Part shown: piece after piece, positions 24,099 to 51,195 of the stretch
Layout of the letters: each line of letters opens with the position of its first letter
Position numbering within the stretch: the stretch's first letter is position 1
DNA from: Octopus sinensis
Taxonomy: Eukaryota
Assembly: GCF_006345805.1 (NCBI RefSeq)
Contig: NW_021833617.1
Coordinates: 1 to 57,409, forward strand
Reading direction: 5' to 3'
Length of the DNA stretch: 57,409 nt
Notes under the pieces: model-generated
What the model saw: only the letters and a program-made list of their open reading frames with translations
The model's database searches: none
Told to the model about the DNA's origin: nothing
Made by a program: the position numbers and the translations under genes

Positions 24099-24135
<37 letters not shown>

Positions 24136-24489
24136 TGTGATGAGAGACAAAATGTTAAGAGAAAGTGGAAACAGAGAGTTTAAGATACCAAAGTTTGTTT
24201 TTTTTTCCTAATTAATAAGTCTTTTACCTAACCCCAAATTCTATAACAAGAACTCTCTAATCAATTCCTACAATGGCTGTCGTAAGAGAAATGCCTAATG
24301 TTGAAGAAATCTCTCTCCCATACAATGAACATCAAGAAATACCTGAGAGGTTCTCCTTCATAATAATACTCTCAGACCAATTGTTACCTTATTGTAGGTG
24401 AGATCACGGTGTTATATCAGTGTTCATCTACACTAATATTTTCCCAGTTGTTAATATAGGGAAAGGGGTTCACAGAGATGAATATTGAA

Positions 24490-24678
24490 ATTGGTGTCAA
24501 ATGTTGGCACAAGGCCAGCAATTTTCAGAGGAAGGGGAAATCCATTACATCGACCCCCGTACTCAACAGGTATTTATTTTATCGACCCTGAAACATCGAC
24601 CATGGTAGAATTTGAATTCAAAACGTGAAGACATACAAAATGCCAGCATGCCAACAATTCTGCCAGCCGACCGTCTTA
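24490..24678 (-). mobile_element. SINE family A, decayed
   Basis: Reverse complement of the family A head, core and tail. Confidence 0.75.
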
Positions 24679-25389
24679 GGCGATTATTAATATTAACAAC
24701 TTTATCTTGGAGCTTTTTCTTTTGTTGTCCAATTTTTATAGGGGTCTACTTTCTTAGAAAATGTTAAGTGTATAAATGTCATTTCATTTGTTATCAGGAG
24801 CCCTCAGCCCTATTCTAACATGCTATCCCATTTCATGTTGGCACAGATCAGCAGTTAATTGAATTAAACACCAGTACTTAACTTGTAATTATTATATCAG
24901 ATTGATCATCACTATTTGAACTTGGAATGTAAAGAGCAAATATTCGAATGTATTTGGTCACATGCTGGAAATGTTCTACGAATCCATAGGAGCCTGGCTC
25001 CTCCTCCTCCTCCATCGACACTAAAACATTTCACTGGGAACCGATGAATGAAGCAGACTTTCAAAGTGATGCCAACGAGTGGCAAATGTTGCTCTGTACA
25101 GCTACGAAATCACTAACAATGTACCAAATCATATTTAGAACCAAATTTATCATTGCTAATATATTTTAACACGTGAACCAGTCTAATCACTTCTTTCTGC
25201 TTCATCCACCAGTTAACTATTTACAGCCAGCCATATTCCCCTCTGATTGCAATCTCTCACTCCCATCACACCAATAAACATCATTTCATTACTCCTTATT
25301 CTCAACAACATATTGTCCGACCTTACAACACAATCAACTGTTAACAATACAGACTACAAAGTCATATAGAAAGGATTACAACCGATTTT

Positions 25390-25391
<2 letters not shown>

Positions 25392-25440
<49 letters not shown>

Positions 25441-25479
25441 AGGAAGAAGAAGAAGTAGTAGTAGTAGTAGTAGTAGAAG

Positions 25480-25539
<60 letters not shown>

Positions 25540-25549
25540 CAGCAGCAGT
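25392..25549. repeat. Compound trinucleotide microsatellite (GTA/GAA/GCA blocks)
   Basis: Directly visible alternating triplet blocks. Confidence 0.95.
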
Positions 25550-28426
25550 CATACCAACTTTAAAATTAGATCATTTCTCCTTGAATATTTCTGAAATAAA
25601 GACTTCTACAGGCACATGATAGGTTTATTAGATTAGTATGTACACTCGCCAGACAGTCAAGACAACTAAAACTTTATAAACACATTGGAAATTCACGGTA
25701 TAAATCTCAAAATAGTCTTCTTTTGTTTACTAGATTCAAAAAGTAACTCGGAAAAAATAACTGATAAATATCGACAATTTTTTTAACAGTTTCAATCACA
25801 TGCCAAAGTATTTTGATAACATTTCTCTCCACCCAGTAAACAGAAAACCGGCGAAAAAGATGCGAGAGAATTGTAAAAGCATTTATCATATTCTAGATGT
25901 GAAATGGAAGATATAGAAAATGATTTACAAGTGAAAAAGTAGTGATGTAGCAATGGCAGATGATAGATACTTCAATCATTAGATTTTTACAACAATGTTG
26001 ACAGGAACTAAAGTCAAGGAGAGTCAAGAAACAATATTTTAATTCCGTTCTAGTTTCTGGGTTTAGAGTGACAGTATTCAACATCATCATAAAAGACACA
26101 AATACTGATTGGTTGTCCATAACAGTTGAAAAGACAATAAAAGAGGAAAATACCTAAACTGGGTAAAGCTGTAGTATGTGGTTGAGTTTCAATATTAGAG
26201 TCTTCTCTTATATTTTCTGATGTTCTGCTTTCTACATTGTTACATAGAAACTTATATTCAAGTGTAAAAAGCTTTGTCTGGCATCAGAGCTATTCACCCA
26301 GCAGCTCACACACCTCTGCCATCAACTTTACTGTTTCTTATTCCCAGCTCAGTAAATCTGTCCTCTTCAGAAGCATCCGTCCTTGTTTCTATTTTCCTTT
26401 CTACAACTGCCCAGTTTTAAAATCTCCCAAAAACACCCAAAATACAGCGCCTCCTCCCCCACACCTACCCACTTATCTTTCTTCAGATTGAACTAAACTA
26501 TTAAGAAATCCTCAGCAGACAAATCAATACAATATTTAGTTTAAATAAATTTAAGAACACTGAAACTTTGAATACTGAATAAAATTGGTCATTTACACCA
26601 CCACCAGCATCGTTGTTGTTGTTGTTGTTGTAGGTGGTGGTGGTGGTAGAAAGCAGTTGTGATTTTAATTTAATCGACCATTGATAATTTGATAGACTTA
26701 TTTAACATCAGGGTCATTATTCTGCAGTATACTATAGCAGGGATGCAACGAGCCTCTTACAAAAAATAGGACACAATATCAATATATTATCTTCAATTTT
26801 AAACAATTTGATAAAACACAAATTCCCAAGAAATAAAAATTTTTAATTTTACTTTGAAAATGATAGGACACATCACTGTCACAGTGTGTGTGTGTGAGAG
26901 AGAGAGAGAGTGTGTGTAAACATGATTAGTCCGCCAGGCTTTATACAAGTGGTAGCCTGAAACTGTTATATAATGTTGACTTGTATAATGTATAAAATAT
27001 AAGGAAATCAATAGTTAATAGTATTTCTAAATTTCTGAGATGTGTCATTATTGGAATAGTTATTTAATCATGGAAACCAGCATGGCTATGCCCATGCCTG
27101 AGCAACACCAGCAAAGATTACTGCAATCAAGACTGGTAAATTTAAATATACTAATATACAAAAATACTAATAATGTAAAGACCCTTAAAACAATGTGGAA
27201 CTGTAGGAATAAAAAAAAAGTCCATCAATATTTAGTAACTATTAATTATTATAGTTCTATGTAACATCTATAATATTATATTTATTAATCAATATTTAGT
27301 GTCATTATTATAGTTGCATGTAATAAATCCAATATGACAGCTAAAACAAACCATGGTGTTTTTCTGCACAGATTGTTACCTGCTAATCACATCAATTATT
27401 GATTAAGTTTATGTCCCTGATTCCAAGAGTTTAATAGAAGCTGTATTTACACATCATCATCATCCCCCTGATCAGGAGTAAAAGTGACAGTTCCAATGAA
27501 GTAGTTGAAATTGAGCAGGAAAGGTCAATGAAACAGATACCAGGGACACAGATGTTCTATCAAGGGAACATGGTGGAAAAGCTGAAACACGAGTACCAGA
27601 AATGTTTTGAAACTATTACAATCAATAGTAACAAATATGAAGTAGGTGTAATAGAAGAAAGCTAAGGTGATAGTTAGGAAGGAGAGAGATAGTGTGTGTG
27701 TGTGTGTGCACGTGTGTGTAAATAAGGTGTTGGTGGAGCAATTTATCTGCCATAAATTTCTGCTATGACTGACTAACCTTGTGGTCAGAGTCATCTTATG
27801 TCACTTATTTGTCACTGACCACTACCTTAGCTTAGTGTATTTAGCTGTAAATAGATACCATGTAGCGTGTTTCAGTATTTTGTAATGACCATTTCCACTA
27901 TTCTTGCACATTTTGACCAGTACTTTTACATTGTTTCTATTCAACAGCAACAACAATATCCCATAGTTATATTGTTGCAAATAAAGTTCTTTCTATTCCT
28001 AAACACTCTTGTGGTCCTGCGTTATTAAATGTTAGTTCTTTTAACTGAGAGTTGCTACAACAAAATCAAAAAACCATCAAGGTTTATTAACTACACAATA
28101 AGATATCTTACTCCTGAGTATACACATTATTCCAGGTTAGATTCCAGCTATGAACTTTGATTTCTAAATGAAGGGTTGTACGCCACCAGTGGCTTTACTC
28201 AATAAGGATGTTGTGACAAGCTTTCATTTAGAAATATCATGTCTCATGTAGATATTAAGGGAAACGTACCTATACTCTAAATATGAAGTGTTGTAAAAAT
28301 TATCTAAGCAACAATGACTCATCTCAGAAGTTTAGATATCTAATTTAAACAAAAATCATTAGTAGAAACAAGAAAGATCAAAGTTAGTTTCTACGTGGTG
28401 AGAAACTATCAATTTAACTAACTCAC

Positions 28427-28450
28427 CCTCTCGCCAATGGTTTCTTCCAC
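28427..28450 (-). CDS. Candidate 24-nt frame-preserving microexon (VEETIGER if phase 0)
   Basis: Minus strand: tatttttattcttttcag|GTGGAAGAAACCATTGGCGAGAGG|gtgagt. Consensus acceptor and donor, length a multiple of 3, no stop in any frame. Confidence 0.65.
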
Positions 28451-28739
28451 CTGAAAAGAATAAAAATACATATTCAACAAAAATTATATTACAATAAAAA
28501 GAAATGTAATAAAAGTGATTTCACAACAATCTGTTAGTGTTTACCCATAATTATTAAACTCTAACAAAAGACTAAGTCTTTTGTGTTCATTCTGTAAAGT
28601 TATTAAAGATGGTGAGATTTATTAAATTATCTGAAATACATTATTATATTTAGAGTATATAAATTACCCCGGACTAAATAAATATATATTTCCTTTCATT
28701 AATTAGCTGGTGGAGGGGAGTGGATCCGTGCCAGACAGC

Positions 28740-29370
28740 TGAAATCAATATGGTGAGCTAATATTCAATGGGAACTTTAGTAAGTTGACATATGTAGGGA
28801 AACTGGTAAGGAAGCGAATTCCAGAGTGTTCAAGTTGTGGCAATGACTGGAAATAAAGAATTTAGTGTGGGTGCAAGAGAATGGAACAGGGTATGAATGG
28901 GGGGAGGAGGAGGAGAAGGCTGCATGGGATTGGTCGTAGTGTATTAGTTGCTAGTTCAGAGAATGAGAGATGGTTGTAGAAGAGACAAATAGATCTGTGT
29001 GAATTAGTTGTTCTTGTGGTGGTGGTGGTGGTGGTGGCAGTGGTGGTGGTGGCGGTGGTGGTGGTGGCGGTGGCGGTGGTGGTGGCGGTGGTGTGTTGAT
29101 CTGACCAATTTGTGCGTGGAAAGCAACTCTAATTTTGGGGTGTTGAAGAGAATCAAAGATGAACTATGCTTTGCTCTTGAATATTCTGGATCCAGTTTCA
29201 ATGACATTATTAAGAAGCCTTCATCAGATGTAACGATGAAGCAGAATTTAGTTTTTAGTTGGGTGATGTTCATTGTTGGTCTGCTGGTTATGTGCAGCAA
29301 TTGACACTTTGGTGTTGTTTGATGGGGTCTGAATGAACATGTCCTCATTGCAAGATCTTTCTCAGGCCAT
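28740..29370 (-). mobile_element. Decayed LINE 3' fragment interrupted by (GGT)n
   Basis: The minus strand shows a decayed 'WNSL..FP..Y' terminal segment (ctggaattcgcttccttaccagtttccctacatatg). Confidence 0.45.
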
Positions 29371-30679
29371 TATTTATGAAAGCAGTGCATGTTTTGTGTT
29401 TCTTGTGTCTTTTCCCTCCACCCACCCCCAGCCAAATTAAATAATGACATTGCTGAAATATGAGTAATTGGATTTCTGGCAATAGTTAAAGAATATCTCT
29501 ATAACAATTATCAATGTAAAATACAACAATGTTTACTTGTTTATTTTTCCAAATAGTTGTGGCTAATGAATAAGGACATCCAGTGTCATAGATTGCAAGC
29601 AGAGATTTCTAGCACTCTTCATGTAGCAGTTCAGAGCTACTGAAATTGCAGTCTTTTGGATGTTTAGTTGTAGCCTCAAAGTTGAATAACTGTCTTAAAT
29701 TTATTGTATTAATGCTATCTCGATATTTTTAAGGTAAACTTGATGTGACAAAATATAAAACTCAATGAGACTCCATACTTCATTGTTAATTCTTACAACC
29801 GTTTCAAGTCTATTCCAACAAACATACAAAGCAACAGTGAAGAAACATCATGCAGAAAGGGAGATATGTCAAATATTTATCAACATGAAATAGAAAAGAA
29901 ATAGCAAAACAGAAGAATATTTTTTAACAATTAAAAAACAATAAGGACATAAAATCAAGACATAATATTAAGATTGTTCATTTAGCAAACTTTGTATAGT
30001 ATATATTATGCTTTAAACACAAACATTTGACAAATTTGCAGGGGTTACCGTTTTCTACAATCCAAACACATAACCATGTAATATACCTCAATATTGAACT
30101 TCTGAACTTTATAAACTGTGAAAGCAAACAGAAAGATCTATTTTTATGTTATACAAAACAGATATTTGTATTGAAGTTTTGTAAATATTAATGTGTAATG
30201 GATCATGTAGAAGTATTGGTAGAACCATTTAACAAAGCTATATATCTAAGCTACTGCACTGCACTACACGCATACATACAAGGATGGATGTCTGAGTAGA
30301 CAGACAGGCAGATCTATGGACAGACACACAGAAGATAATAGAACTGCTGGTAGGACCATTTAACACAGCTATAGCTCTTAGTTACTCACTCAAATATAAA
30401 CGGCTCCTTAAACATCAACTATACAAACTTTCACAGGGATATTTCACATGGAAACATGCTGCTGTTATCACTTAAGTTGCCCCTATCCCTAAACTCTCCC
30501 TACCTGTAACAAGGTACTCAGGCAAATGAGATAAAAGTATTAAAAAACAGAAACATATAATTTCAGTCACTGAACTGCAGTCATACTGGAGCACTACCTT
30601 GTAAGATTTAGCTGACTTCAGAATGGCTAACTTATGACCTATGGTTGTAATATAAAGCAATACAGCTAAAGACACACAG

Positions 30680-31115
30680 ACGCAGACATGAATGGATGGT
30701 TAAAAAGTTTGCTTCCTAACCACAGGTTTTCAAGTTCAGTTCTACTGCATGTCACATTTGGCAAGAGTCTTCTAGTATTGCCCTGGGCCAATGAAAACCA
30801 TCTCATAGAGTTTGGTACAGGGAAACTAAAAGAAGTGCATTGTGTGTGTGTGTTGTGTGTGTGTGTGTGTGTGCATGAGAGAGAAAGCATGTGTGCATGG
30901 GTGTGGGTGGGTGTGTTTGTCTCTCCTTGTCTTCACATTGTACAGTAGTTGTAAACTAACATTTGTGTCATTTGTTTCCAAACTTTCTGGCAAAATATGA
31001 CAGACCATGGAGAAGTATTACCTTACTTGGAAACAGGTGAAGACAGCTGACATGAAAAGCATCTGGCCATTGAAAATCACCTTCAATGAATTCTATTGAA
31101 CCCACACAAGCATGT
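30680..31115 (+). mobile_element. Decayed tRNA-derived SINE (family C head, family B-like tail)
   Basis: Head aagtttgcttcctaaccacaggttttcaagttcagttctactgcatg, a (TG)n middle, and a tail aaagcatctggccattgaaaatc...cccacacaagcatg. Confidence 0.65.
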
Positions 31116-31224
31116 GTATGTGTGTCAAAAGAACCAAACACCTCAAATATCTCTTTTTCCAGTTGACCTAACAGAGTAGCAGCCAGGCTCCTTCATTCAC
31201 TGTACGCATTATGTATATAACACA

Positions 31225-31400
31225 TCATCCTCCTCATTTAACATCCATCTCCTATACTAGCCCGAGTTGCATAGTCTGACATGATCCAACAAGCCAGCAA
31301 ACAATGTCATGCTCCAATGTCTGTTTTGGCAAGGTTTCTATGGCTGGAGGCCTTTCATAAAACTAAACACTTTACAGAGTGTACTGGGTGATTGTTTTCC
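31225..31400 (-). mobile_element. SINE family B / retroelement tail, decayed
   Basis: catcatcctcctcatttaacatcc...aggtttctatggctggaggcc is the reverse complement of the family B tail. Confidence 0.7.
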
Positions 31401-32780
31401 TTCTTTCCATACACCAGTAGTCCAGTTGGCAAGTAACTCACAAGTCAAAGTAGAAGACTCCCCCTACTGACTGGGATCACAGTAAAGAGGGATTTGAATT
31501 TGTCTCAGTCAGAGGATAATGTATGACAGAAGGACAAGCAAAAGTGTCTTCCCATGGAGAAGCTACATAGCTGCACTGCCTTGTGTATGGGGGAGAGGGA
31601 ATCGTTGGAAGGGAGTTGAAAATGGTGATGGTGAAGTATCAGGATGTACACTCAAGGTACAAGTAAGTGAATATAAGGGAGATATAGGCAGAGGGTCAGA
31701 AAGGGTGGGTGGACAAGATCATAAGCGCTGGGGTAGGGAATCACAGATGGTTAGAGATGGGGGTAGAGGTGAATGTAGTGTATGATGAACAAGAGTTGGG
31801 GGGGTATGGTGGATGGTAACTATCAGTGGAGTGGCAAAGTGAAGGAAATAGCAGTAGCTTGGGAAGAAGGAGGTGATAAGTGGCAGTAGAAGAAGGACAG
31901 AGAGCAGCAGTATAATAAACCTGTAGATAGGGGGGTGCAGAGTGGAAGAGTTGTGGTGGGAGGAAAGCATACAGTGACAAAGATGAATGTCAGAGGTTTG
32001 TAGGGTTGGCTATAGGGAACACCGGTAAGGAGGTGACTATCAACATATAAACAGGGGGGGAAGAGCAAACACACACACACACACACACATTTTGCTTAAC
32101 TGCATGGTCTCCGATTCAGACCAACCGTTTAGCACTTCCAATAAGTATCTTTGACTAGAACCTCAGGCTTGTCTGTGCAAGTGTGCACAAGGCTGCACAC
32201 ATCTTACCCATATAATTTAGCCTATAATACTTAAGTAGAGAAATATTTGCACTTCTAAGATACTAAAACAACCAAGTTGTTCAATAAAATTCTTACAACA
32301 AATCCCAGCTTAATCTTCTGTGTGACAAGCTGATTATACCAAGTTCACTAAAATAAGAAGCCATGTCTTTAATACAAATTCATCTATAATCAAGTAAATA
32401 TTTAAAGCTCCAAACAATTAAATAATATTAAAATGTCTGTGTCAGATTCATCAAAATCTAACAAATATTTGTGTTCCTCTATTCTATGTTCAAATCCTGT
32501 CAAAGCAGAATTTTTCCATAGGTTGAAAGTTTCTATTTGTTATACAAACTTATTAAGACATTTGTTAAGAGAAACTAAAATATATAATAAGCCATACTAA
32601 ATACACTCTTCAGCAACACAATAGTCATAATTAATTAATTAATTAATTAAGGCTAATTAATTTTGCATCAATAATCTATTTGTTGGTGTTTTTTCAAACA
32701 TTAAGAAGTTCCCACAAGATGCAGTTCTCTAAATATGCACACACACACACACACACACACATGTGCACTCACACACGTAT

Positions 32781-32830
<50 letters not shown>

Positions 32831-34079
32831 CAACTGACTCAACAGAATGTTCATTTCACATTTGTGCTCATCCTGGATGGAGTTAACAGATAAAAAAACA
32901 TCCATGTGAAGTGACACACAGACAGACATCAAGAAAGCCTTTAATTGAGAAAAAAACAAGCAAAATAGAGAAAAGAACTAAAAAATGGTTAAAACGTCAT
33001 CATTTTCATCAATCACCTCAAATAGTCCTCGTTAGCTACTTTTTCATCAACAGACAGGCAGGCAGACAGACTGATGGACAATGGACAGGCAGAGCAGAGT
33101 AACTGAGTCCTCTTCATTATTTGTTGTGTCAATCAGTTAAAAATCAACAATGAGATATATTCTGATGATGATGATGATGATGACACAGTAAGCAGCAGCA
33201 GCCAAAATAATAAATGAGGAGTGAAGGCCGTTGAAGTGGCAGAACTGGCAGAGTCGGGAGCTAAGTTTTAACCAAAAGACATTTTTCAAATGAAAAGGAA
33301 CAAGAAAACAAGAAAAAGAAACAAGAATCTAATTTCATAGAGAGGTGGAGGTGGGAGGAGGCTGCATGCAAAGAAAAGAAATGTTTTCAGTGGAGTCGAG
33401 ATAGAGTTTGAAATGTGTGATCTGGGGAGAAACAGCAATAAATCAATAATAAAGTATTATCTGGGGAGAAACAACAGAAATAATAATCGTATTTTGGATT
33501 TGTTGTTATTGTTTTATGAGAGAAGAATTTTGTTATTTTTGTCAATAATTAGGTCCTTAAATTTCTACTAAGGACCCAGAAGAAACTAAACTCTAAACTG
33601 AAAGTAACATTCTGTCTCGAAAGTTGAGGGAAGAACAAAATAAATACAATTCTTATCTTGAGGTGTACATGTGATGAAAAACAATGTCCTCCATGTGAAA
33701 ACTGTTTGTCTCAGCCATGGTAGGTAGAGTCGTTAGCTTATAAGTAGGAAAATGAGGATTCTGTAAAGTCTAACTAAGAACCATTAATATGGTGCAGTGT
33801 TAGCTGTTGGTGAGCAGCTAGTTACTAGCAAGCTGTATTCAATGAATGGAAAGAGAGGGGCAAGGAAGGGCTGCCACCAAAGGCTATTAAAGGTGCAGAA
33901 TGCATGGAAAGAACAGGGCCTTCCCAATATAGACCAAACAAAGGGATTGACCATTCTTATACACAGCAGCATGATAACAGTTAAGGCAAATGAAAGCAGA
34001 GAAACCTCCTGGTTATTAGGAATTACTGTTGAAAATGTTGAAAATATACGAGTGGATACTGAGGAAACCAGGGGTAGAT

Positions 34080-35160
34080 AAACAGCTTGTGAGTTTCATG
34101 CAAACCATGTACATAGGAGCAGTCAGCAAGACGGAAATTAGCAATGAATACAGCATATGATCCACCAGTACACAATTCTCAGTCCCTTTCTATCGATCAT
34201 AGTCCTCTAGAAAGACTATGATCAATTGATTAGAGGAGTTTTATGCTGGAAGGCCCAAGGGAAGTCCAAAATGCTGAAAAGCTTTTTCTTGTAGCTGAGT
34301 CTGCAGCAGAATTAGAGTAGAAATTCCAAACACTGAAGAAAAATCTGGAATCACAAGGTCTCGACATTAATTTAGCAAAGAGCAAAGTCCTAGTAAGTAG
34401 GAATACAGATGCTGGTGGCTTCAGGAAAATTATCTTATTTGATATGTAAGGAAGAATTAAGTGGAAATTCTATACAGCGTAACCAGTGAAAAACATAAGA
34501 TGCAGTGGACTCACAAAAAGATTAACAGAGGAATTAGGCTTTGTATGTGCAAGAAACACTAAGAACACACAGGAAACAGACTCACTCAAATACCCAGGAA
34601 ATTACCTAGAAGTAGTAGAAAGTTTCTGCTCCTGAGGTGAGCTAATTAGCAGTGGAGGAGGTTGTTCTCTAAGTATAATCTCTAGAATAAAAACAGGATA
34701 GGCTAAGTTCAGAGAACTTTTAGCTTAGTTGGAAACAGATGGTTTCTCATTCAGAATGAAAAGCAGACCAGCTGATGCTTTTGTACTTCAGGGTAGTGAG
34801 ACTTGGACCCTGAATAAAAAGGACCTGCAAAAACTAGAAGAAAATTAAGCAAGCATGCTTCACTAATGTGCAATATCAGCATACATAAATGATGGAGTAC
34901 AAATGCATTGATGAAGACTGGACATAAGAGGAGTCAGTTGTAGTGTGCAAGCAAGATGAATGTATTGGTCGGGGCTTAGAGATGAGGACAGCTGCATAAA
35001 TGCCATTTGCTAACAGTACATGGAAGCTGCAAGAAAGGGAAGACCAGGAAGATGTGAAATGAAGGGATGAAGGCTTATCTTAAGATGTGGAGATATAAAG
35101 GACTGAAATGACTGGTGATATGCAGGACTTGAGAGGACTTGGCCAGCAATGCTGGTAGAG
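34080..35160 (+). mobile_element. Decayed RTE-like LINE (RT and downstream region)
   Basis: Remnant LESQGLDINLAKSKVLVS, LEVVESFC, ISSGGGCS and GSETWTL motifs, with many stops. Confidence 0.7.
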
Positions 35161-36039
35161 CAAAACTGAGGTTCTGGAAGCATAATAGACACTATGCCCT
35201 TGTCAGTCCTACAATCTTATCTTGATGGTTCTTATATCTGCTGCATTATTCTGCTACTGTAATTAATGAAAGAAGAACCTATTATTACATCCAGTATCAT
35301 CACCCTTTCTGTATTAACAGTCATCACTCCCTGTTCCTTCTTAGCGACATCTATCCCTCATGCTTACAACCATCACCTCCTACTCATATTTACCACCTCT
35401 CCACCCTGTTCACCAGTCACCCCTTCCACTCTTATTTCAATCCATCTTTCACTCCTTCCCCGACACTCTGCTACCTTTACTCACCCTTCCCAATTCTTCA
35501 GTCTCCGCACTCTCTTCTCTTCATCTTTCTAGCCATTTTAGCACCCTTAACACCACCATTAAGACAAACCTTAGACAGTTTAGTGTCTCCCTCTGCAGTT
35601 ATGCTGTATTAGGTGCAATCCCCTCACTGCTCCACTAAAGATTACAATACCAACTACTCACCTATCAATCTCATTTCTAACATCATAAACAGGATAAAAA
35701 ATAATCAACATCTGACTACTTCATCACTTTCTCCACCATAACCTTCGGCACAATTTCAACAGAATCCCACCAACCAGATATTTCATCTTCTACACCATAC
35801 ACTTGTGGTTTCTCGACCCTTGACAATTTTAACAATACAATGTTCTTCACATCATAACATTCAGTGATTGCTGTTGTAAGAATCTCCAATAAGTAAGCCA
35901 CCTATAGATTCCATTACATTTCTCACTCTTTTAGATTACAATTTCCCTGGTACACAATCCATCACAGCAAGCATTAACAGAGTTATCACAACCCCACAGT
36001 CTTTTTTTATAATAGTTTAATCTGGAAGAAGGGGCTGTG

Positions 36040-36410
36040 GTTATGGCTTTTGCAGAGAGTAGTGAGACTAATGCTGGTAACATTCAGCTTAAACTGTAGC
36101 AAGCCAAAGACTGCAGGAAAAACATGAGCAGGGAGGGAATTGAGAAGGGCCAACATTGTAGGGAGGCTAGTGGTTAGGGCAGAGCTGAAAAGAGGAAAGT
36201 AAGAAGCAAGACTGCTTAAGTGGAGATGGCAGGGGGACAGCTAATTTTGGGGAGCAAAGGCCAGTATAGTAGTGGTAGAAAAGACAGAGAGAGGACACAG
36301 CACATCTGTAGGCCAGAGGTTGGAAGGATGTTGTATAAATCACTTGGGTGGCTTCTCTTTGAATGTGCTCAAGGACATCAAGCAATTCACCGACCAACTC
36401 ACTGTTATTT
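36040..36410 (-). mobile_element. LINE ORF2 C-terminal remnant (CR1/Jockey-group-like)
   Basis: LDVLEHIQREATQVI...FQPLAYRCAVSSLCLFYHYYTGLCSPKL. Confidence 0.7.
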
Positions 36411-36412
36411 TT

Positions 36413-36453
<41 letters not shown>

Positions 36454-36789
36454 ACACACACACACAGATGACACTACTCTTTCTTCCTTCTTAATCTTCA
36501 ACACACAGAATGTATCCATAGCTGTACTTCTTTTTTATGAATAAAGAAGCCCAACACAGTAATGGCAACCTGATATTTAATCTCCATCAACAATTCCACA
36601 GAATCTTTGTACACAGCAAAAAGGCAGTCTTACAACACAATAACTAAAACTCTCAAAATCAATTTTAAAAACTCGGTTCCATAATCTTTAGTAACTTGTA
36701 ATAAAACCTCACACATAGAACATTGCCAAACAAAGTTTCTTTTCTCCCAGCAGCGGCAGCAACGCAACAAGTATATCCACATGAACAGG

Positions 36790-38693
36790 GATGAGTAGGA
36801 GAAGAAGCACGTCCATGTGGATGGGCATGAGCAGGAGAAGGAGCACGTCCATGTGGATGGGCATGAGCAGGAGAAGAAGCACGTCCATGTGGATGGGCAT
36901 GAGCAGGAGAATAAGCACATCCATGTGGATGGGCATGAGCAGGAGAAGAAGCACGTCCATGTGGATGGGCATGAGCAGGAGAAGAAGCACGTCCATGTGG
37001 ATGGGCATGAGCAGGAGAAGAAGCACGTCCATGTGGATGGGCATGAGCAGGAGAAGAAGCACGTCCATGTGGATGGGCATGAGCAGAGAAGAAGCACGTC
37101 CATGTGGATGGGCATGAGCAGGAGAAGAAGCACGTCCATGTGGATGGGCATGTGCAGGAGAAGGAGCACGTCCATGTGGATGGGCATGAGCAGGAGAAAA
37201 AGCACGTCCATGTGGATGGGCATGTGCAGGAGAAGAAGCACGTCCATGTGGATGGGCATGAGCAGGAGAAGAAGCACGTCCATGTGGATGGGCATGAGCA
37301 GGAGAAGAAGCACGTCCATGTGGATGGGCATGAGCAGGAGAAGAAGCACGTCCATGTGGATGGGCATGAGCAGGAGAAGAAGCACGTCCATGTGGATGGG
37401 CATGAGCAGGAGAAGAAGCACGTCCATGTGGATGGGCATGAGCAGGAGAAGAAGCACGTCCATGTGGATGGGCATGAGCAGGAGAAGGAGCACGTCCATG
37501 TGGATGGGCATGAGCAGGAGAATAAGCACGTCCATGTGGATGGGCATGAGCAGGAGAAGAAGCACGTCCATGTGGATGGGCATGAGCAGGAGAAGAAGCA
37601 CGTCCATGTGGATGGGCATGAGCAGGAGAAGAAGCACGTCCATGTGGATGGGCATGAGCAGGAGAAGAAGCACGTCCATGTGATGGGCATGAGCAGGAGA
37701 AGAAGCACGTCCATGTGGATGGCCATGAGCAGGAGAAGAAGCACGTCCATGTGGATGGGCATGAGCAGGAGAAGAAGCACGTCCATGTGGATGGGCATGT
37801 GCAGGAGAAGAGCACGTCCATGTGGATGGGCATGAGCAGGAGAAGAGCACGTCCATGTGGATGGGCATGAGCAGGAGAAGAAGCACGTCCATGTGGATGG
37901 GCATGAGCAGGAGAAGAAGCACGTCCATGTGGATGGGCATGAGCAGGAGAAGAAGCACGTCCATGTGGATGGCATGAGCAGGAGAAGAAGCACGTCCATG
38001 TGGATGGGCATGAGCAGGAGAAGAAGCACTTCCATGTGGATGGGCATGAGCAGGAGAAGAAGCACGTCCATGTGGATGGGCATGAGCAGGAGAAGAAGCA
38101 CGTCCATGTGGATGGCATGAGCAGGAGAAGAAGCACGTCCATGTGGATGGGCATGAGCAGGAGAAGAAGCACGTCCATGTGGATGGGCATGAGCAGGAGA
38201 AGGAGCACGTCCATGTGGATGGGCATGAGCAGGAGAAGAAGCACGTCCATGTGGATGGCATGAGCAGGAGAATAAGCACATCCATGTGGATGGGCATGAG
38301 CAGGAGAAGAAGCACGTCCATGTGGATGGCATGAGCAGGAGAAGAAGCACGTCCATGTGGATGGGCATGAGCAGGAGAAGAAGCACGTCCATGTGGATGG
38401 GCATGAGCAGGAGAAGAAGCACGTCCATGTGGATGGGCATGAGCAGGAGAAGAAGCACGTCCATGTGGATGGGCATGAGCAGGAGAAGAAGCACGTCCAT
38501 GTGGATGGGCATGAGCAGGAGAAGAAGCACGTCCATGTGGATGGGCATGTGCAGGAGAAGAAGCACGTCCATGTGGATGGGCATGAGCAGGAGAAGAAGC
38601 ACGTCCATGTGGATGGGCATGAGCAGGAGAAGAAGCACGTCCATGTGGATGGGCATGAGCAGGAGAAGAAGCACGTCCATGTGGATGGGCATG
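36790..38693. repeat. 36-bp minisatellite, ~53 copies (GCATGAGCAGGAGAAGAAGCACGTCCATGTGGATGG)
   Basis: Near-identical head-to-tail units over ~1.9 kb, with a degenerate extra unit at ~36760-36800. Confidence 0.98.
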
Positions 38694-38849
38694 AAAATAT
38701 ATATAAAAATATATAATGAGTTAGTTCACTGACTGAATAACGAAACTCAATATTTCAAAGTAAATCATTTTATTTTCTCAATACTAATTCTTTATTATTA
38801 ATTAGAGACAGAGTTCAAGTTCTTCGTGGAATCTGAGTTACATTTCTGT

Positions 38850-39420: not shown

Positions 39421-40734
39421 TAGAAGCGATGGGATAGTTGTCTAACAAAGCAGAGTGTTATGTGGTGTCAACCAGTATAACAATATTATCAAAAGAAGTA
39501 ACAACAGGTAGAAGATGAGTGATGGAAACATAATTACAGGTAGTCCACTTCAGAATAAAACAACAACACCAAAAACAAGTCACTAATATTGACAATGGAA
39601 CTGATTAAGTCACCATTGGCTATATTGTCATGAACGAATATGATCAGTAAAATGCAGAAAATACCCGTTGCAATAGTCAACAAACAATAAAACACATCAG
39701 CATCATGATGACCATCCAACCTCTAACAAAGAAGGCACCATATTGTCTTGGACCATATATAAAGATGTTTTAACAGCAGACATGAGAGACAGAGAGCTAA
39801 CTACTCAAGACTATGTCTATTCAGGAATGCATTAAAGATCTTTACAAATATTTAGATCATTGTTGAAAGTCACTGATAATATTGTTGTACATTAAACTAA
39901 AATATATGAAGTTTTTTTCTACAATAAACCTAATGAATGTGACATAGTAAATATCAGCTAACCAAACATACACACACACACACACGTCTATATGAATATA
40001 TATAAATACATATACACATGTGTATATGTATATACATACACAAGTGAATGAGTGAGTGAGTGAGTGAGTGGTGGGTGGGTGGGTTTGTGGGTGGAGGGGC
40101 AGACATATTACGCTCCACAATAGCATAATATTGAGATAGGTAAAGATATTTGTAAGAAAGAATAGAATCACTGGCCAGCTTCTCTCATTGCCAGACAAAC
40201 ATTGTCTACAGTGATCATACAACTTACTAACAATAGTTTTAAAGCACAACAAACTAATCAATACACAGTCCGTATTTATTATTATAATAATAGTAATTTT
40301 TACAGTTCAGATAAAACTGTCTGGTTTACATCTGATCTCTGTTCTGTCTACAAATGATATAAAAGATAGAGTTTTTCTTTCAAAACAGAAAATAATGGAA
40401 TTTCACAAGGTCACAAGGTCTTCAGTTGACAACTATTCTTAGATTAACTGGAAAAAACATATGCAATATTGTTTTAGATTTACAAAACTCATCTGCAATT
40501 TTACAAAATCCCAAAATGATTTCTTTCTTTGTTGTACAAATTTTCACTTATGACAATATACTTCTCTGAAAGAGTAGTGTGTGTGTGTGTGTGTGTGTGG
40601 TGTGTGTGTGTTTGTTTGTTTGTTTGTTTGAGAATTTCATTGTTGATGTACTCCTTCCATGAACATGCACACATGCACAGACACAGCATGTTTGAACAAA
40701 ATGTGATGATTATGTACTGGTCAACAGCCAACAG

Positions 40735-41540
40735 CATTGGAGAGCATAAAGATTAAAGTTGAGAAAATGTTAGCCGACATGGGAGGCTGGAAGCCAACTG
40801 AACACTGGGAAAGAGTTACCTGTATCATGATGATTCATGGTGGGTATCAAAATGCCAACATCATGACTGTTGTTGTTCAATGCTCTGGAAACACTGTTAA
40901 GGTTGTAAGACATGGTGCAGACAGATGCAACAGGGGCTATGAAGTTGTGACCAGGAAGGAGCACAGCAGGCATTCTGACAGCATCCACACACCAGAATTC
41001 ACCCCCAAATCTTTGAACAGGGCTTCAGGCAGCTCAATTCTGACAGTTGTGAAGCTGCTGAAGATGTGGTCATATTCCCAGATGGAGAGGATAGTGTTGG
41101 AAGGCCATATGCGTGGCAGCAGGATTCTGCTTTTTGTCATCCCTCCAGAAAGAGTCAGAATGGTTGACAGGGAATTCCTACAACTTCACCAGCCCTAATT
41201 TCTGGCCCCCTAATTCCCCCAAATGTTATCCAATGATTTACTATGTACGGGATGTGATTGAGAAAGACACCAACCACTCTCTGCCTGCAACACCAAGATT
41301 GAGCTGGCAGCCAAGATCAAAGTGTTCAAAGATCTTCCCAAGAACACACTGAGGAACACATGCACCAGATTCTGGTGTCATTCTAAGGCCGTGGTGGAAG
41401 CTGAGGAAGGATAGTTTGAAAGAACTGTGATTTCCCAACCATAATCTCATTGATATCCTTTTGATCTTTAAAATAATTTAAATTCTGGATGGGATAGTGT
41501 TTTCTTTTCCTTTTATGCAAACTAACAAATTTAGTCCAAA
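40735..41540 (+). mobile_element. Tc1/mariner fossil, maT (DD37D)-like
   Basis: WQQDSAFCH and WLTGNSYNFTSPNFWPPNSPKCYPMIYYV..VIEKDTN correspond to a decayed QD..P.H ... WPP.SPDLNP.DY.VW motif. Confidence 0.7.
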
Positions 41541-43134: not shown

Positions 43135-45058
43135 AATAAATAGTTGGCAAAATAAAATGTTGTGCTCCATTTCTTTCAAGGAAATTTTATTGACCTTAGC
43201 TGGACAATGTGTTGCTCACATACTTCAGTACATTATGCAAAAGTCTATGACAAACATTGAAAAATTCATTGAATTGTGAATGAAGTTAGTGGGTGTACTT
43301 TCTGAGCCATGCCCAACACATGATGAGTGCCAAACAAAGGACATATTATTGACATTGGGGAAACATTCAGTGCTAGGACAATTTACTGTTGGTTAATTGA
43401 CCCCTGGTCAATTTGCTGCTCTTCAGTTTATCATGCAGCCAAAATTTTCACCAGTCAACTCATCACCAGATCAATAATGCATCGTGTTTTGACAACATGT
43501 ATTAGAACAACATACTGTGCAGAGATGGCTTGCAAAATTTGTTTCTGAGGATCAACCCTTTCAAGTTGGACAATATAAAGGAAGACCATTATCCATTATT
43601 GATAGTATAAAATTGTTGAATATAATTGAAGTCGATATAGAACCTCATCCGACGACAGGCACCCATGCCAACCCCCTTTGCTTGCGAAGACATGTTGGGG
43701 CAAGCGAAATCGAAATCGAATTGAACCAGCCAGGATTCCTGGTCTGGTGGTACGTAAAAAGCACTATCCGACTCGTGGCCGATGCCAGCGCCGCCTCCAC
43801 TGGCTTCCGTGCCGGTGGTACGTAAAATACACCAATCCGACCGTACGACAGGCACCCATGCCAACCCCCCTTTGCTTGCGAAGACATGTTGGGGCAAGTG
43901 AAAGCGAAATCGAATTGAACCAGCCAGAATCCCTGGTCTGGTGGTACGTAAAAGCACTATCCGACTTGTGGCTGATGCCAGCGCCGCCTCGACTGGCTTC
44001 CGTGCCGGTGGCACATAAAATACACCAATCCGACTGTGGCCGTTGCCAGCCTCGCCTGGCACCTGTGCAGGTGGCACGTAAAAAGCACCCACTACACTCA
44101 CGGAGTGGTTGGCGTTAGGAAGGGCATCCAGCTGTAGAAACATTGCCAGATAAGACTGGAGCCTGGTGCAGCCTTCTGGCTTCCCAGAACCCCGGTCGAA
44201 CCGTCCAACCCATGCTAGCATGGAGAACGGACGTTAAACGATGATGATGATGATGATGAATTCTCAAGTAAGACAACAGGAACTTTCATGGATGTTCAAC
44301 ATGAAACTATAATTGTATCAGCAAAGAAAATCCTGGAAGATAAACAGATGGCAATAAACTTCATTGACTGTCAATTTGTTCTTCATTTCTTTCACTTCAC
44401 AAAACAAACAAAAAATCCTAGACACTTTTTAATTATTTGCTCACTTGCAATGGAAAGTGGTTGTTACACTCAAACAAGAAGAGAAATTATCGCTGGCTGC
44501 CACCAAATGATTCAGGATCACACACATCAAATGCACTGCTTCACCTCCAGGAAAGTGCATTTAGTATGTGATGGAGACTGCAGCTAGAATTCTCCACAGT
44601 AAGTTTCTCATTACAAGTCAAACAATTATGGCTGAAACCTATTCAATGCAAATAGAGTAGGTACAGGATGGTTTACTTCAGAAGTAGTTCATCAACAGAA
44701 AGTGATATTTCTACAAGACAATGCAACATCTCATATGGCAAAGATTTACCCATGACAAGTTTTGCTTAGGTTGGTAGGTACTTCTACACCCACCACATTC
44801 TCCTGATATTTCAGCAAGCGATTATCACTGGGTCTTTTGTTTGTTTTTTTTCCCACTAAACATTCATATGCAAGACAATTCCACAAGAAAACAGAGATTA
44901 AAGAGACTGTCTTTTAAAGACAACAGATTTTTTTGAAAGTGGGATTGACATGTTTTCCATAGGGAAAGAACCAAGAGATTAAATAAACATTTTTGCAATT
45001 TTTATATGAAAAAAATTTTATTATAAAAAATCACATGGACTTAGCTGCCTACCTCATA
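43135..45058 (+). mobile_element. Decayed mariner element interrupted by a SINE
   Basis: HTH region VQRWLAKFVSEDQ...GRP...IIEVD (43517-43635), then IFLQDNATSH and LLHPPHSPDISASDYH (~44700-44830). TIRs are only weakly recognisable. Confidence 0.7.
43645..44259 (+). mobile_element. Young SINE family B copy with ~195-bp internal tandem duplication
   Basis: cgacaggcacccatgccaaccccctttgcttgcgaagacatgttgggg occurs at ~43653 and ~43846. CpGs are intact and there is a (GAT)n tail. Confidence 0.9.
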
Positions 45059-46454: not shown

Positions 46455-49400
46455 TCAGGATCCCCTCCAGGAGCCCCATTATCGACTTTTTCAAAAATGT
46501 GAGTATACCATGAGGTTTCCTCCTCTGGGCTTAAAAAACAAAGATGGCACCAAAGTGGGAGAAGAAAGAATTGAATCTTCTGTTGTGAGCATAGATGATT
46601 GCTAGTGGCGATCTGCCAAACAACATCATCACTGTTGCACTGAAAAACAATGGCTTTCACAGAACCACTGATCAGATAGAGCGGAAGAAGAATGAGTTCA
46701 TTCGATCCTATATGCTTATCAGACCACACATTGACACACTGGATGTCATAATCGAAAACTATTCTAGCTAGGATGATAAGAATGGAGAAGATGAAAAGGA
46801 AAAAAAACCTGGAAGTCTCTTTGATCCAGTGGTTCCTCAAAAGAATGGATCTCCCACCCCTGTGAACAACCAGGCAGAAAAGGATAGGGGAACCAAGGAA
46901 GCAGCAACTAGAAGCCCCTCTGTGCCAGTGGTCCTACAAAGGAACGGAGCCCTCACCCAGAGGAAAAAAGTTCCCACCACAAAAAAAGGCAGGACAGAAC
47001 ACAAACACAAACATAAAGAAGGAAAGGAAGAAAAAAGAAAAGGCAAAAATGAAACAACCGAAACCGAAACCCGAACCCACCAAACAAAAACCAGAAAACC
47101 CCATGGAGGATCCAATGCCATCCAAAACCCTACAGGAAAGAAGAAATTTGGAAGGCACTCAAGAACCTGCAAATTTTACATGCAAAGCATATGTTGGCAT
47201 GGGGAAAACAGCAAAAACTGTTGGTTTGCCCACCCAACACCCTGCCAATACTACAGGGGCCTTAAGGAGAAAAACTTCCCTGAGGAAAGACAACAAATGT
47301 CTCCAAGGAAACAAATTTATGAAAGAAGTGTCCTCTTCAGAGGTTATGTGCAATGCAGCAGCTGAGCAAGAGTCTTTTTTGTGCATGGCGCAAAGGATTG
47401 TACAACAGCTGACCTGGCTACACCAAGCACAAACAAGGAACATTGCACACCACTGAACAAGACCACCTCAGTCAACAGACATGGGATGGCCTCCCCTATT
47501 GCCTGTACAGTCGTCATGCCAATATTTTTACTAAATATTGGGGGCCTCTTGCATCATAATAAAAGCAAAATTTCTTTCCTGAGAGACCTTGCTGCATGCA
47601 ATCAAGGGAAAGGAACCATGGTGGAGTTGCTGTATACATCCAAGATGACCTCACACCCCAGGTCTTACTGCCATACTCAAATTCAGCATGTGACACACTA
47701 ATTGTGTACATAAGACAATATAATATAGTCATATGTAATACATATTGCCCACTGGATGCTACAAACCACATTGGCAAGTTTGAAGATTGCCTCACAAGGA
47801 GTAAAGAAATCCTCATGAATCTGGAACACCACGTGACCATATTTCTTATGGGTGATTTCAACTTCCCCAACGTCAAATGGCCTGAAGGTTTCATACTCTC
47901 AGGAATGACTCATTGCAAGCAAGCACAAGTGGAGTCCCTGCTCAACCTCACCAATGCCCTATTCATGGAGCAAGTTGTACTCAGACCAACTAGGGCAAAT
48001 AACATTCTGGATCTCTGCTTCACGAACAATATGGACATCATTCATGTGAAAGTGATGCCAACATTAGTCTCGGATCACAACATAATAGAGCTGTCTATGT
48101 TTGGGCCAAAAGTAACCAGGGACATACAGCCTAAAGGAAGCATCCGAAATCTCTCCAATCTCAACTTCCACAAAGCAGACTAGAAATTGATCCAAAAAGA
48201 GATCCTCAGACAGGACTGACCAAAATGTCTCTCCACACCAGACATTGACATGAAACTAGAATATTTCAAGTCTTCTGTGCAAGCCGTATGCCAGAAATAT
48301 GTCCCAGAGCACAAGGCCCAAATAATTAGGAGCAAGATTCCAGGAGAGAGGAAGATCCTCATGAGATGACAGACAAAGGCTGCAAATCAACTCAACCAAC
48401 ATCCCAAAAGCAGTGAAACGTCCCGCTTAAAAACAACACTGATGGAGATTGAAAAAAGGCTGCAACAATCTATGTGAGGGAGAAAGCAGACAAACAAGCC
48501 TGGGTATAAAAAACATTAAGTCAAACCCAAAGGCCTTCTGTCATTACCCGAAAGAAACAGCCTCAGTACGCTGCAAGGTAGGACCCCACCTCCAAAAAGA
48601 TGGCGCCCTCACAGACAGTCCAACTAGGATCAGTGAGATAGTGAATGACCAGTTCAAAAGTGTATTTACCGCCCCGTTGGAACACAGACAAGTGAATGAA
48701 CCAGTGGACTTCTTTGCCACCTCACCTATAACCAGCGAGACAGTTACGATGGAATACTTTGACATTAGCAAAGAAGATATACTACTAGCCATAGATGAAG
48801 TGGACACAAACTCAACTGCTGGTCCTGATGGTTTCCCAGCAATCCTCCTCAAATCGTGTAAGCATGCCCTGGTAAAACCCCTCCAGATTCTCTTCCAGAG
48901 CTTTCTTGCAAATGGCAAACTGGCAAGCAAGCTGAAGGAGGGAATAATATGCCCAATCCATAAAGGGGGAAGCAGAGCAGATGCCAAAAACTATAGGCCT
49001 ATCTCTCTGACTTCACACATCAGCAAAGTCATGGAACGGATCGTCAGAAAGAAACTAATCGCATTCCTTGAGGAAAATAACTTGCTGAGTGATACCCAGC
49101 ATGGTTTTCGACCAGGTATGAGCTGCCTGACCCAGCTCTTACAACATTATGACTGGGTGTTGAGGCAGTTACTCAACAACTCAAATGTGGATGTAACATA
49201 CCTTGATTTTGCAAAAGCTTTTGACAAGGTGGATCATACCATGATCATGGTATGATATGCCACAAACTGCATGATCTCGGCATAGCTGGAAAACTTAGAG
49301 AGTGGTTACATGACTTTCTGAAAGATAGGAGTCAGGCAGTAGTGGCTAATGGAACCACCTCTATGAAAACACAAATAGTGAGCAGTGTTCTGCAGGGCAC

Positions 49401-49810
49401 TGTCTTGGGATGACTGCTTTTTATAGTGGCCCTCAAGTGCCCAGATAGCCACCCTTACAAGCTACGCAGATGATATGGAAGTCTTGCAGAAAATACAGAA
49501 CCCCAGCGATGTTGCACATCTGCAGCATAAGTTGGACTCAATTTTCAGATGGGCTGAGGATAATAATATGCAATTCAATGCTGAAAAATTCCAAGCCCTG
49601 TGCTACAAACATCCAAAACAGAATATGAAACTTACAGGGTCCACTGGTCCACAGGGAATTTCAATCCCAGAGCCTAAATCAGTGAATGACCTGGGTATAA
49701 ACATGAGTAATGATACCTCTTTCCAAGTGCACATTACCAGGATGACGACAAAGTGCAGACGACTGGCTAGATGGATCCTAAGAACATTCAGAACAAGAGA
49801 TAAGGAAAAC
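46455..49810 (+). mobile_element. CR1/L2-group LINE copy 1 (ORF1, APE, RT; 3' end missing), inactivated
   Basis: APE motifs GGVAVYI, GDFNFP, LDLCF, SDH. RT motifs GPDG, PIHKGG, YRPISL, QHGFR, LDFAKAFDKVDH, YADD. Multiple stops and frameshifts. Confidence 0.92.
46829..47365 (+). pseudogene. LINE ORF1 fragment with CCCH-type zinc finger
   Basis: Lys-rich region followed by CKFYMQSICWHGENSKNCWFAH (C-x7-C-x8-C-x3-H) at 47168-47233. Confidence 0.6.
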
Positions 49811-51195
49811 CAAGATCCTAGAAGACACACACACAGACAGAACGGATTTTATATAATAGACAAAACGCCCCCCCCCCCCGGTCCAATGGACGGTGCTGAG
49901 TTGTCAAAGATTTAAACCAAATTTTCTTAAAACAACTTGTCTGACCGTCCCATAGGCCTCCCCTATGAGAATCACTGATTTAACCTAAATTTGAGACACC
50001 AGCAAAAGAATAAATAAAGATAGAAAGTTAAGGCAAAAAAAAAATTCTTGAGAAACCAAATAGTCTTTCCTTCCTTCATGCCAAGTTTGAAGAAAATATC
50101 TCTTTTGCACCTTACTTTTGTGGTCTCTTAAATATACTGCATTTTGTGGCATTATTTCAAGCCAGCTGGCTTTTCTTGTGCAAACTGCACATGCATTTTT
50201 CTCGTGTATGTGTAGTATCAATCGGAACAGCTGAGGTACTTGCGTGTACAAATGCACATTCCCACAGCTTTATAGATCGCATTCTCACCTGGAATCGATT
50301 TTTGTAATTTTTTCAAGACCTATATAGGCCCTGATACTGCCGCTATCTACAAATCAAATTTGAGTGCAATCGGATGGAGGATGCCCAAGATCCTACAAGA
50401 CACACACACACACAAACAGAACAGATTTTATATAATAGCCGTTTGCCAGCTTGGCCGTTTGCCAGCTCTGTCTGGCCCCGTGTCGGTGGCACGTAAAAGC
50501 ACCATCCGTTCGTGTTCGTTGTCAGACTCGGCTGGCCCCCGTGCCGGTGACACGTAAAAGCACCGTCCATTCGTGGCCGTTTGCCAGCTCTGTCTGGCCC
50601 CGTGCCGGTGACATGTAAAAGCACCATCCGTTCGTGGCCGTTCGCCAGCTCTGTCTGGCACCTGTGCAGGTGGAACGTAAAAAACACCCACTACACTCGC
50701 GGAGTGGTTGGCGTTAGGAAGGGCATCCAGCCGTAGAAACACTGCCAGATCTGACTGGGCCTGACGAAGCCTTCCAGCTTCACAGACCCCAGTTGACCCG
50801 TCCAACCCATGCTCTAGCATGGAACGCGGACGCTAAATGATGATGAGACAACTTGTGCGACTGTGGCATAGGCCTCCCCTTTGAGAAACACTGATTTAAC
50901 CTAAATTTGAGACACCAAACAGGCCAGCTTTTTTGCGCAAACTGCACGTGCAATTTTCTCGGGTACGTGTAGTATCGATTGGAACAGCTGAGGTACTTGC
51001 GCATACAAATGCACATTCCCACGGCTTTATCGATTGCATTCTCATCTGGAATCGATTTTTGTAATTTTTTCAAGACTTCTACATGCCCTGATACTGTTGG
51101 TATCTACAAATCAAATTTGAGCACAATCGGATGGAGGATGCCCGAGATCCTAGAAGACACACACACAGGAAGACAGAACAGATTTTATATAATAG
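49810..51195 (-). mobile_element. Tandem Helitron-like 5' ends (three copies)
   Basis: agatccta.aagacacacacac...agaac.gattttatataatag occurs three times, ending at ~49860, ~50438 and ~51195. The minus strand begins A|TCTATTATATAAAA. Confidence 0.7.
50439..50846 (+). mobile_element. SINE family B with ~60-bp internal repeats
   Basis: Repeated ccgtgccggtg.cacgtaaaagcacc.tcc units followed by the family B tail ending atgatgatga. Confidence 0.9.

What the first reader, a model, noticed from the sequence alone, without database searches (positions are those of the whole stretch)
36709..38716. 36-bp x ~53 array with five open frames: hidden repeat protein or expanded triplet-derived minisatellite
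Seen: the unit reads HEQEKKHVHVDG or MSRRRSTSMWMG on +, and MPIHMDVLLLLL, AHAHPHGRASSP or CSCPSTWTCFFS on -. Every frame break I saw is a 1-nt loss in a short G or A run, as expected from long-read error, so the true array may be one uninterrupted frame. On +, a good acceptor (tttcttttctcccag, 36750) leads in frame toward the His/Glu/Lys-rich repeat and a stop at 38716, but one TAG at 36796 blocks it. On -, ATG 38692 to TGA 36709 would give ~660 aa of hydrophobic repeat. In that frame many variants, including that TAG and the degenerate end unit IPVHVDILVALL, are silent or conservative. Counter-view: 9 of 12 triplets are NAN, so a non-coding origin from decayed triplet repeats could mimic this.
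Basis: partly seen in the sequence, partly recalled or inferred. Interest (0 to 1): 0.7.

Follow-up and report, generated by a model that had tools for sequence, protein, structure and literature searches.

The report
Hexamer-born octopus minisatellite, no gene shown
This is a real, single-location run of about 53 copies of a 36-base unit made of six similar 6-base words, and its stop-free reading frames are no more than chance gives, so it is most likely an ordinary non-coding repeat rather than a hidden protein gene.

Summary
The array is real: 36 bp x 53 at 36791-38694, one locus in the genome, at least ~30 copies by depth in a DNA? run. Five open frames are ordinary: 28-34% of shuffled or matched 36-mers give as many. 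The unit is six degenerate copies of the hexamer GCATGA (26/36 matches; P=0.008 even with triplets kept). That hexamer alone gives the same five open frames and the same closed one, which accounts for the peptide flavours and the NAN pattern. All 8 frame breaks are 1-nt losses in runs, probably assembly errors (not tested directly). TAG 36796 is real in a read-derived contig, and all three + frames stop within 48 nt of the acceptor. Variants show no synonymous excess in any frame. No homolog was found for the His or Leu frame; confident AlphaFold models for both frames are uninformative. Expression and sister-species frames remain untested. The scan noted error-like frameshifts and non-coding minisatellites elsewhere in this genome. 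Verdict: likely non-coding minisatellite (0.8); hidden coding about 0.1.

The parts
36791..38694 (.). 36-bp minisatellite, 53 copies; unit is six degenerate hexamers (GCATGA GCAGGA GAAGAA GCACGT CCATGT GGATGG)
   Evidence: single locus in G000
36768..36812 (.). degenerate left-end unit, 11 differences from the consensus, two of them at the unit's CpG
37065..38352 (.). stretch holding the eight 35-nt units (1-nt losses in G or A runs); none within 296 bp of the left end or 364 bp of the right end; probably assembly errors
36736..36753 (+). acceptor-like site (pyrimidine tract + CAG, tandem CAGCAG); other AGs at 36717 and 36734, so the AG-free zone is short
36782..36800 (+). stops in all three + frames (TGA 36782, TGA 36792, TAG 36796) and a possible donor TGA|GTAGGA at 36795 that overlaps the TAG
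   Evidence: the bases are confirmed by the X1 contig 36470-36826 with 0 differences
36709..38692 (-). candidate frame (MPIHMDVLLLLL)n, 663 aa if the losses are errors; weak start context; unsupported
38695..38720 (.). abrupt right junction into AT-rich DNA; the same junction letters appear as a loose end of an X1 contig

Best explanation
This is a single-locus 36-bp x 53 minisatellite whose unit is six similar hexamers, likely non-coding, likely formed when a short (GCATGA)n-like run decayed and a six-hexamer block was then copied head to tail. Shown: the array, its single locus, the hexamer substructure, the chance level of the open frames, and the real TAG. Inferred: growth by slippage or unequal exchange (the same variants recur in separate units), possibly helped by a near-palindrome in each unit; the eight 1-nt losses are consensus errors in a part that short reads cannot polish; and the array is intergenic or intronic with no protein product. 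The five peptide repeats are decayed translations of the hexamer (HE, MS, ML, HA, SC; the A* frame is the closed one).
For: Lag-6 self-match 22/36, reached by 0 of 50,000 mononucleotide shuffles; period-6 consensus 26/36, P=0.008 when triplets are kept. The pure hexamer has the same five open frames and the same closed frame. Five or more open frames occur in 28-34% of controls; no single substitution can create a stop in the minus Leu frame (0 of 108), so its openness is automatic. No synonymous excess in any of six frames among 7 variant types (best 3/7) or 11 end-unit changes (best P=0.11). TAG present in an X1 contig with 0 differences; all + frames stop within 48 nt of the acceptor. No hit at E<=0.001 for the His frame (1655 and 3268 candidates) or the Leu frame (7998 scored); 0 of 9 exact ORF look-ups; no paralog above 43% identity for the His frame and none for the Arg/Ser or Leu frame at E<=1e-5. 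Pfam found only LINE and transposase domains in the parts of the window scanned. 8 of 8 losses in runs (P=3e-4) and away from the ends (P about 0.05). Sub-repeat origin of tandem units is described in PMC5615363 (passages).
Against: No perfect (GCATGA)4 exists in G000 (0 matches), so the proposed ancestor is not a current microsatellite here. A six-base period also fits a coding His-X dipeptide repeat, and hexamer repeats are frequent in coding DNA (PMC3899988 passages). A hexamer origin does not raise the odds of five open frames (0.22). An acceptor-like site this close to the array has P about 0.025. The protein searches are weak evidence by the tools' own wording, and the Arg/Ser frame was not searched in the large collections. 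The apparent 18-21-unit block spacing of variants is not significant (P=0.27).
Confidence: 0.8

Rival explanations
1. The array is a hidden + strand coding exon: spliced in at 36750 and read either from ATG 36791 as a ~649-aa Arg/Ser/Met/Trp repeat, or in the His/Glu/Lys frame if UAG 36796 is edited to UGG.
For: Acceptor-like site (P about 0.025), ATG with G at -3 at the array start, stop at 38730 and AATAAA at 38958. In the Arg/Ser frame 3 of 7 variant types and the TAG change are silent. The indels look like errors. UAG-to-UGG editing is allowed for in coleoid ORF calling (PMC8382921, two passages).
Against: The silent changes share codon positions with the minus Leu frame, two are at a CpG, and the excess is not significant over the frames tried. 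The UAG is unpaired in the local RNA fold. Upstream AGs at 36717 and 36734 and an upstream ATG at 36781 weaken the model. The end unit has a nonsense change in both + frames. No His-frame homolog; no Arg/Ser paralog in G000.
Confidence: 0.08
2. A minus-strand single-exon gene, ATG 38692 to TGA 36709, makes a ~663-aa hydrophobic (MPIHMDVLLLLL)n protein.
For: The frame is open, ends in a non-repeat tail, and has 6 of 11 silent changes in the end unit.
Against: No single substitution can put a stop in this frame; its 'conservative' changes follow from NTN codons opposite the invariant A of the hexamer (and the genetic code). 6/11 against 3.55 expected has P=0.11. The ATG is simply the last unit's Met, with T at -3. 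No homolog; atlas score 0.83 with recognition 861, lead level only.
Confidence: 0.03
3. The array is non-coding but sits at a real exon: either a 41/44-nt micro-exon (36751/36754-36794) closed by the donor TGA|GTAGGA, with the array opening the intron, or a last exon ending at TGA 36792 with the array in the 3' UTR. This is compatible with the best explanation.
For: It would account for the acceptor (P about 0.025) and for the TAG, whose T is the +2 base of the donor.
Against: The donor is weak by consensus (recalled knowledge), and no host-gene domain was found in the parts of the window scanned.
Confidence: 0.1
4. The array grew inside a decayed Penelope-like retrotransposon, and the minus frame is the dead element's reverse-transcriptase frame.
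For: By-eye likeness of both flanks to recalled motifs; a 15-residue match (47% identity, E=0.13) of the left flank to a Penelope-like ORF from this genome, in the expected order.
Against: A profile of 21 such ORFs gave best E=0.13 and nothing for the right flank in the predicted frame; 0 hits among 1.84 billion proteins; no Pfam hit; no other copy in G000 (only E=0.98).
Confidence: 0.05
5. The array is an assembly artefact.
For: It lies on an unplaced 57-kb contig and carries error-like indels.
Against: X1 contigs hold both junctions, and their summed depth implies at least ~30 copies; the unit is also in contigs of X10 and X17.
Confidence: 0.02

Closest known systems
Single-locus GC-rich minisatellite (VNTR), as defined in PMC3899988 and PMC5615363 (passages read)
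   Same: Unit of 10-100 bp, head-to-tail, one locus, high purity, recurrent variant units, degenerate end unit, purine-rich strand.
   Different: Length polymorphism was not measured. The likeness to the human core GGGCAGGANG (PMC2408603, passage) is 7 of 9 and at chance level (P=0.27).
Tandem units built from shorter sub-repeats by duplication and divergence (PMC5615363, sections 3.1 and 3.4, passages)
   Same: The unit keeps six direct sub-repeats of a short word.
   Different: Here the sub-repeat is a hexamer in a 1.9-kb single array, not a centromeric satellite, and the pure hexamer run is absent from the assembly.
Coding minisatellites such as yeast FLO1/FLO11 repeats (PMC3899988, passages)
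   Same: Unit length is a multiple of three and a frame stays open through the array if the losses are errors.
   Different: No host gene, no conserved flanking domain, no synonymous bias and no homolog were found.

Membership tests
Minisatellite (VNTR) | Head-to-tail unit of 10-100 bp | tested here: met
   36 bp x 53.1, 97% matches
Minisatellite (VNTR) | Locus-specific array, not a dispersed or megabase satellite | tested here: met
   48 of 48 pattern matches (up to 2 mismatches) lie in this array; flanks match only themselves
Minisatellite (VNTR) | Variant units recurring within the array (turnover) | tested here: met
   29A>G, 18A>T, 28G>T and the pair 28G>T+35G>A recur in separate units; their spacing is not significant
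Minisatellite (VNTR) | Copy number varies between alleles | not testable with these tools
   Only collapsed contigs were available
Sub-repeat-derived tandem unit | Significant shorter period inside the unit | tested here: met
   Period 6: 26/36, 0 of 20,000 mononucleotide shuffles, P=0.008 against triplet shuffles
Sub-repeat-derived tandem unit | Ancestral short repeat still found in the genome | tested here: not met
   0 perfect (GCATGA)4 in G000
Coding tandem repeat (repeat protein) | One frame open more than chance gives | tested here: not met
   28-34% of controls have five or more open frames
Coding tandem repeat (repeat protein) | Synonymous-biased variation in one frame | tested here: inconclusive
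   No excess, but only 7 variant types and 11 end-unit changes
Coding tandem repeat (repeat protein) | Homologs or an annotated protein | tested here: not met
   the Arg/Ser frame was searched only in G000, Pfam and by exact look-up
Coding tandem repeat (repeat protein) | Exonic transcription and translation | tested here: inconclusive
   Only contigs of runs guessed to be RNA were available; they cannot show strand, level or splicing
Coding tandem repeat (repeat protein) | Frame kept in sister species | not tested
Penelope-like element | Reverse-transcriptase and GIY-YIG homology in the flanks | tested here: not met
   Best E=0.13; none

The most novel reading that the evidence does not exclude
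The array is a young gene born from a hexamer repeat: a + strand exon spliced in at 36750 that makes a ~650-aa Arg/Ser-rich repeat protein from ATG 36791, or a His/Glu/Lys beta-meander unlocked by A-to-I editing of UAG 36796, hidden from annotation by long-read frameshift errors.
Probability: 0.08. Interest if true: 0.7.

Novelty: new member of a known kind. Interest (0 to 1): 0.13.

Why it matters
As read here it matters little: one more minisatellite in a repeat-rich genome. It is a useful worked warning: open frames in a 3n-period GC-rich repeat, 'conservative' changes in an NTN-rich antisense frame, and confident AlphaFold2 models all arise without a gene. If the novel case held, it would show de novo gene birth from a microsatellite, possibly gated by RNA editing, and a class of octopus repeat proteins lost to assembly errors.

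Tried and rejected
Expression: no RNA holder listed (no listed holder is on record as RNA); this is not evidence either way. In one search the three RNA? runs gave no cover of 36665-36790 and no joint was listed; X20 laid nothing; contigs cannot show absence. The small word shares of X13-X20 (0.06-0.19) were not all laid and are not used. No reads were laid on the right flank, so what the RNA? runs hold there is open. Direct indel test: one search listed no loss inside the array, but it listed none of the known substitutions either (variants fall under the 1% depth threshold), so it has no power. X1 holds 0.75 of the sampled words and about 10% of distinct words depend on the losses; compatible with errors, not proof. 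Penelope origin: not supported. Block duplication of 18-21 units: P=0.27. Human minisatellite core: P=0.27. AlphaFold2: His frame beta-meander, pLDDT 89.8 in 1 of 5 models (others 34-54), no PDB match at E<=0.001; Leu frame one long helix, pLDDT 90.5; rejected as evidence because both strands score high and AF2 is reported to give confident models for random perfect repeats (PMC11795689, abstract). Atlas: best 0.81 and 0.83, recognition 673 and 861. Pfam on the repeat frames: nothing at the curated cut-off. DNA hairpin z=-1.77 and 0.25, not significant. Control arrays were picked through a His-repeat query, so their open frames are biased and not used as a background rate. Six repeat peptides were in 0 papers of the searched library; supplements were not searched.

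Full report
Setting. The window is a whole unplaced contig (G000:C10088, 57,409 bp) of a 2.72-Gb animal assembly. Earlier notes of this scan call the genome an octopus (unchecked); a SINE-like repeat in the window fits that (recalled, from no call). The window is rich in microsatellites. Pfam found only LINE endonuclease/RT and transposase domains: 0 families in six read-through frames of 23801-36792, and hits in 5 of 91 ORFs scanned elsewhere (91 of the 150 listed). Short exons would be missed by this scan.

Observation. The array spans 36791-38694: period 36, 53.1 copies, 97% matches. 33 of 52 full units equal the consensus; 8 are 35 nt; none has an insertion. The array is single-locus: 48 of 48 matches to a 24-nt core with up to 2 mismatches lie in it, and both flanks match only themselves. 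Run X1 (DNA by guess; possibly the source sample, so a check on the assembly, not independent support) gives a contig over 36470-36826 with 0 differences, which includes the TAG, and a loose end with the right-junction letters. Its summed depth implies at least ~30 copies and fits 53 (arithmetic). Eight runs hold half or more of the sampled words, under four organism labels. The 66-nt unit contig is present in X10 (organism B) and X17 (organism A), and X10 also has a 207-nt contig matching 36470-36661 without differences. Both runs are RNA only by guess.

Are five open frames surprising? No. Five or more open frames occur in 28% of 100,000 mononucleotide shuffles, 34% of 20,000 dinucleotide shuffles and 32% of 2401 GC-matched 36-mers from the window. 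In the minus Leu frame none of 108 single substitutions makes a stop, so its openness carries no information.

What the unit is. It has a six-base period: GCATGA GCAGGA GAAGAA GCACGT CCATGT GGATGG, 26 of 36 bases matching GCATGA. Lag-6 self-match is 22/36, reached by 0 of 50,000 shuffles, and the period survives a shuffle that keeps triplets (P=0.008); lag 3 alone is weak (P=0.07). The pure hexamer translates as HE, MS and A* on + and SC, HA, ML on -: the same five open frames, the same closed frame and the flavour of each peptide. The NAN count is six invariant As at hexamer position 3 plus three at position 6. Against this: a perfect (GCATGA)4 is absent from G000, a hexamer start does not make five open frames likelier (0.22), and a coding His-X repeat would also give period 6. 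Units built from shorter sub-repeats are a described route (PMC5615363, passages).

Selection. Seven substitution types occur in the array. Silent shares are 2/7 in the His frame (0.17-0.21 expected), 3/7 in the Arg/Ser frame (0.16-0.17) and 2/7 in the Leu frame (0.24-0.26). In the degenerate end the counts are 3, 4 and 6 of 11 against 4.5, 3.0 and 3.55 expected; best P=0.11; both + frames take a nonsense change there. The Arg/Ser and Leu frames share wobble positions, and two of the silent types hit the unit's CpG. The sample is small, so this is absence of signal, not proof of neutrality.

Indels. All 8 are single-base losses in runs (P=3e-4 for 8 of 8 in runs), none within 296 and 364 bp of the ends (P about 0.05). 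Unit 41 has the loss while its twin, unit 3, does not. One other long GC-rich array among 19 fetched shows 4 G-run losses and 1 single insertion, while four short arrays show none. It was not tested directly.

Gene models. On +, all three frames stop within 48 nt of the acceptor: TGA 36782, TGA 36792, TAG 36796. The TAG overlaps a possible donor, TGA|GTAGGA, so an exon here could be a 41/44-nt micro-exon with the array in the intron. The His frame has no Met in the consensus unit and needs read-through. UAG-to-UGG editing is allowed for in coleoid ORF calling (PMC8382921, two passages), but this UAG is unpaired in the local fold; a distant partner is not excluded. On -, ATG 38692 has T at -3. 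The acceptor is the one residual oddity: P about 0.025 at its score, 0.087 at one pyrimidine less, with AGs at 36717 and 36734 upstream.

Homology. His frame: 0 of 1655 and 0 of 3268 candidates at E<=0.001. Leu frame with its tail: 0 of 7998 scored. Exact look-up: 0 of 9 ORFs. In G000 the His query finds other loci at no more than 43% identity, those fetched being unrelated tandem arrays (19 of 20); the Arg/Ser and Leu queries find only this array. Atlas scores are 0.81 and 0.83, lead level only. AlphaFold2 gives confident models for both strands, which is uninformative for perfect repeats (PMC11795689, abstract).

Flanks. I suspected a decayed Penelope-like element from recalled motifs. The best tool result was a 15-residue match at E=0.13, with nothing. 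It is kept only as a minor rival.

Mechanism. Most likely a short hexamer run decayed, one six-hexamer block was duplicated, and slippage or unequal exchange (models reviewed in PMC3899988, passages) expanded and homogenised it, leaving an older unit at the left end. A near-palindrome in each unit pairs with the next unit in the RNA fold (z=-3.4 against shuffles that also destroy the tandem structure; DNA z=-1.77) and may assist; this is inferred. Verdict: new member of a known kind; non-coding 0.8, hidden coding about 0.1; interest 0.13.

Papers seen: PMC5615363, PMC3899988, PMC2408603, PMC8382921 and PMC13282606 as passages; PMC11795689 as abstract and outline; others as search listings only. 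No supplements were read.

Noticed in passing
window 46770-49915 (+) and about 51400-53500 (+): Two broken LINE copies with endonuclease and RVT_1 domains; the first has a basic ORF1-like stretch with a Cys/His motif at 46772-47362.
   Followed up: partly
window 55283-55843 (-): Mariner-type transposase fragment, Transposase_1 E=8e-26; more decayed look-alikes by eye near 40700-41400 and 43300-44950.
   Followed up: partly
window 34200-35100 (+): Decayed LINE-like RT tail left of the array; RVT_1 only at E=0.23.
   Followed up: partly
window 43652-44034 and 50452-50682: Tandem 193-bp (x2) and 61-bp (x3.8) duplications inside SINE-like repeats.
   Followed up: no
L046-L052 (G000 C10, C6, C8, C1, C13, C3): Near-intact Penelope-like ORFs up to about 780-880 aa, in at least two families about 45% identical; many copies 88-98% alike, suggesting recent activity.
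   Followed up: partly
L068 (G000:C17:19232500-19238500): A 36-bp array of at least 167 copies, 76% matches, all six frames open in the consensus; one strand would read as a Thr-rich, mucin-like repeat. A better coding candidate than this finding.
   Followed up: no
L073 (G000:C9:251500-259500) and L022 (C9:91036-94311): An 18-bp array of at least 424 copies, with a look-alike array about 160 kb away on the same contig.
   Followed up: no
window 36754-36770 (+): A short CAG/CAA-like triplet run lies between the acceptor and the degenerate unit, so the left end has a triplet flavour while the unit has a hexamer one.
   Followed up: no
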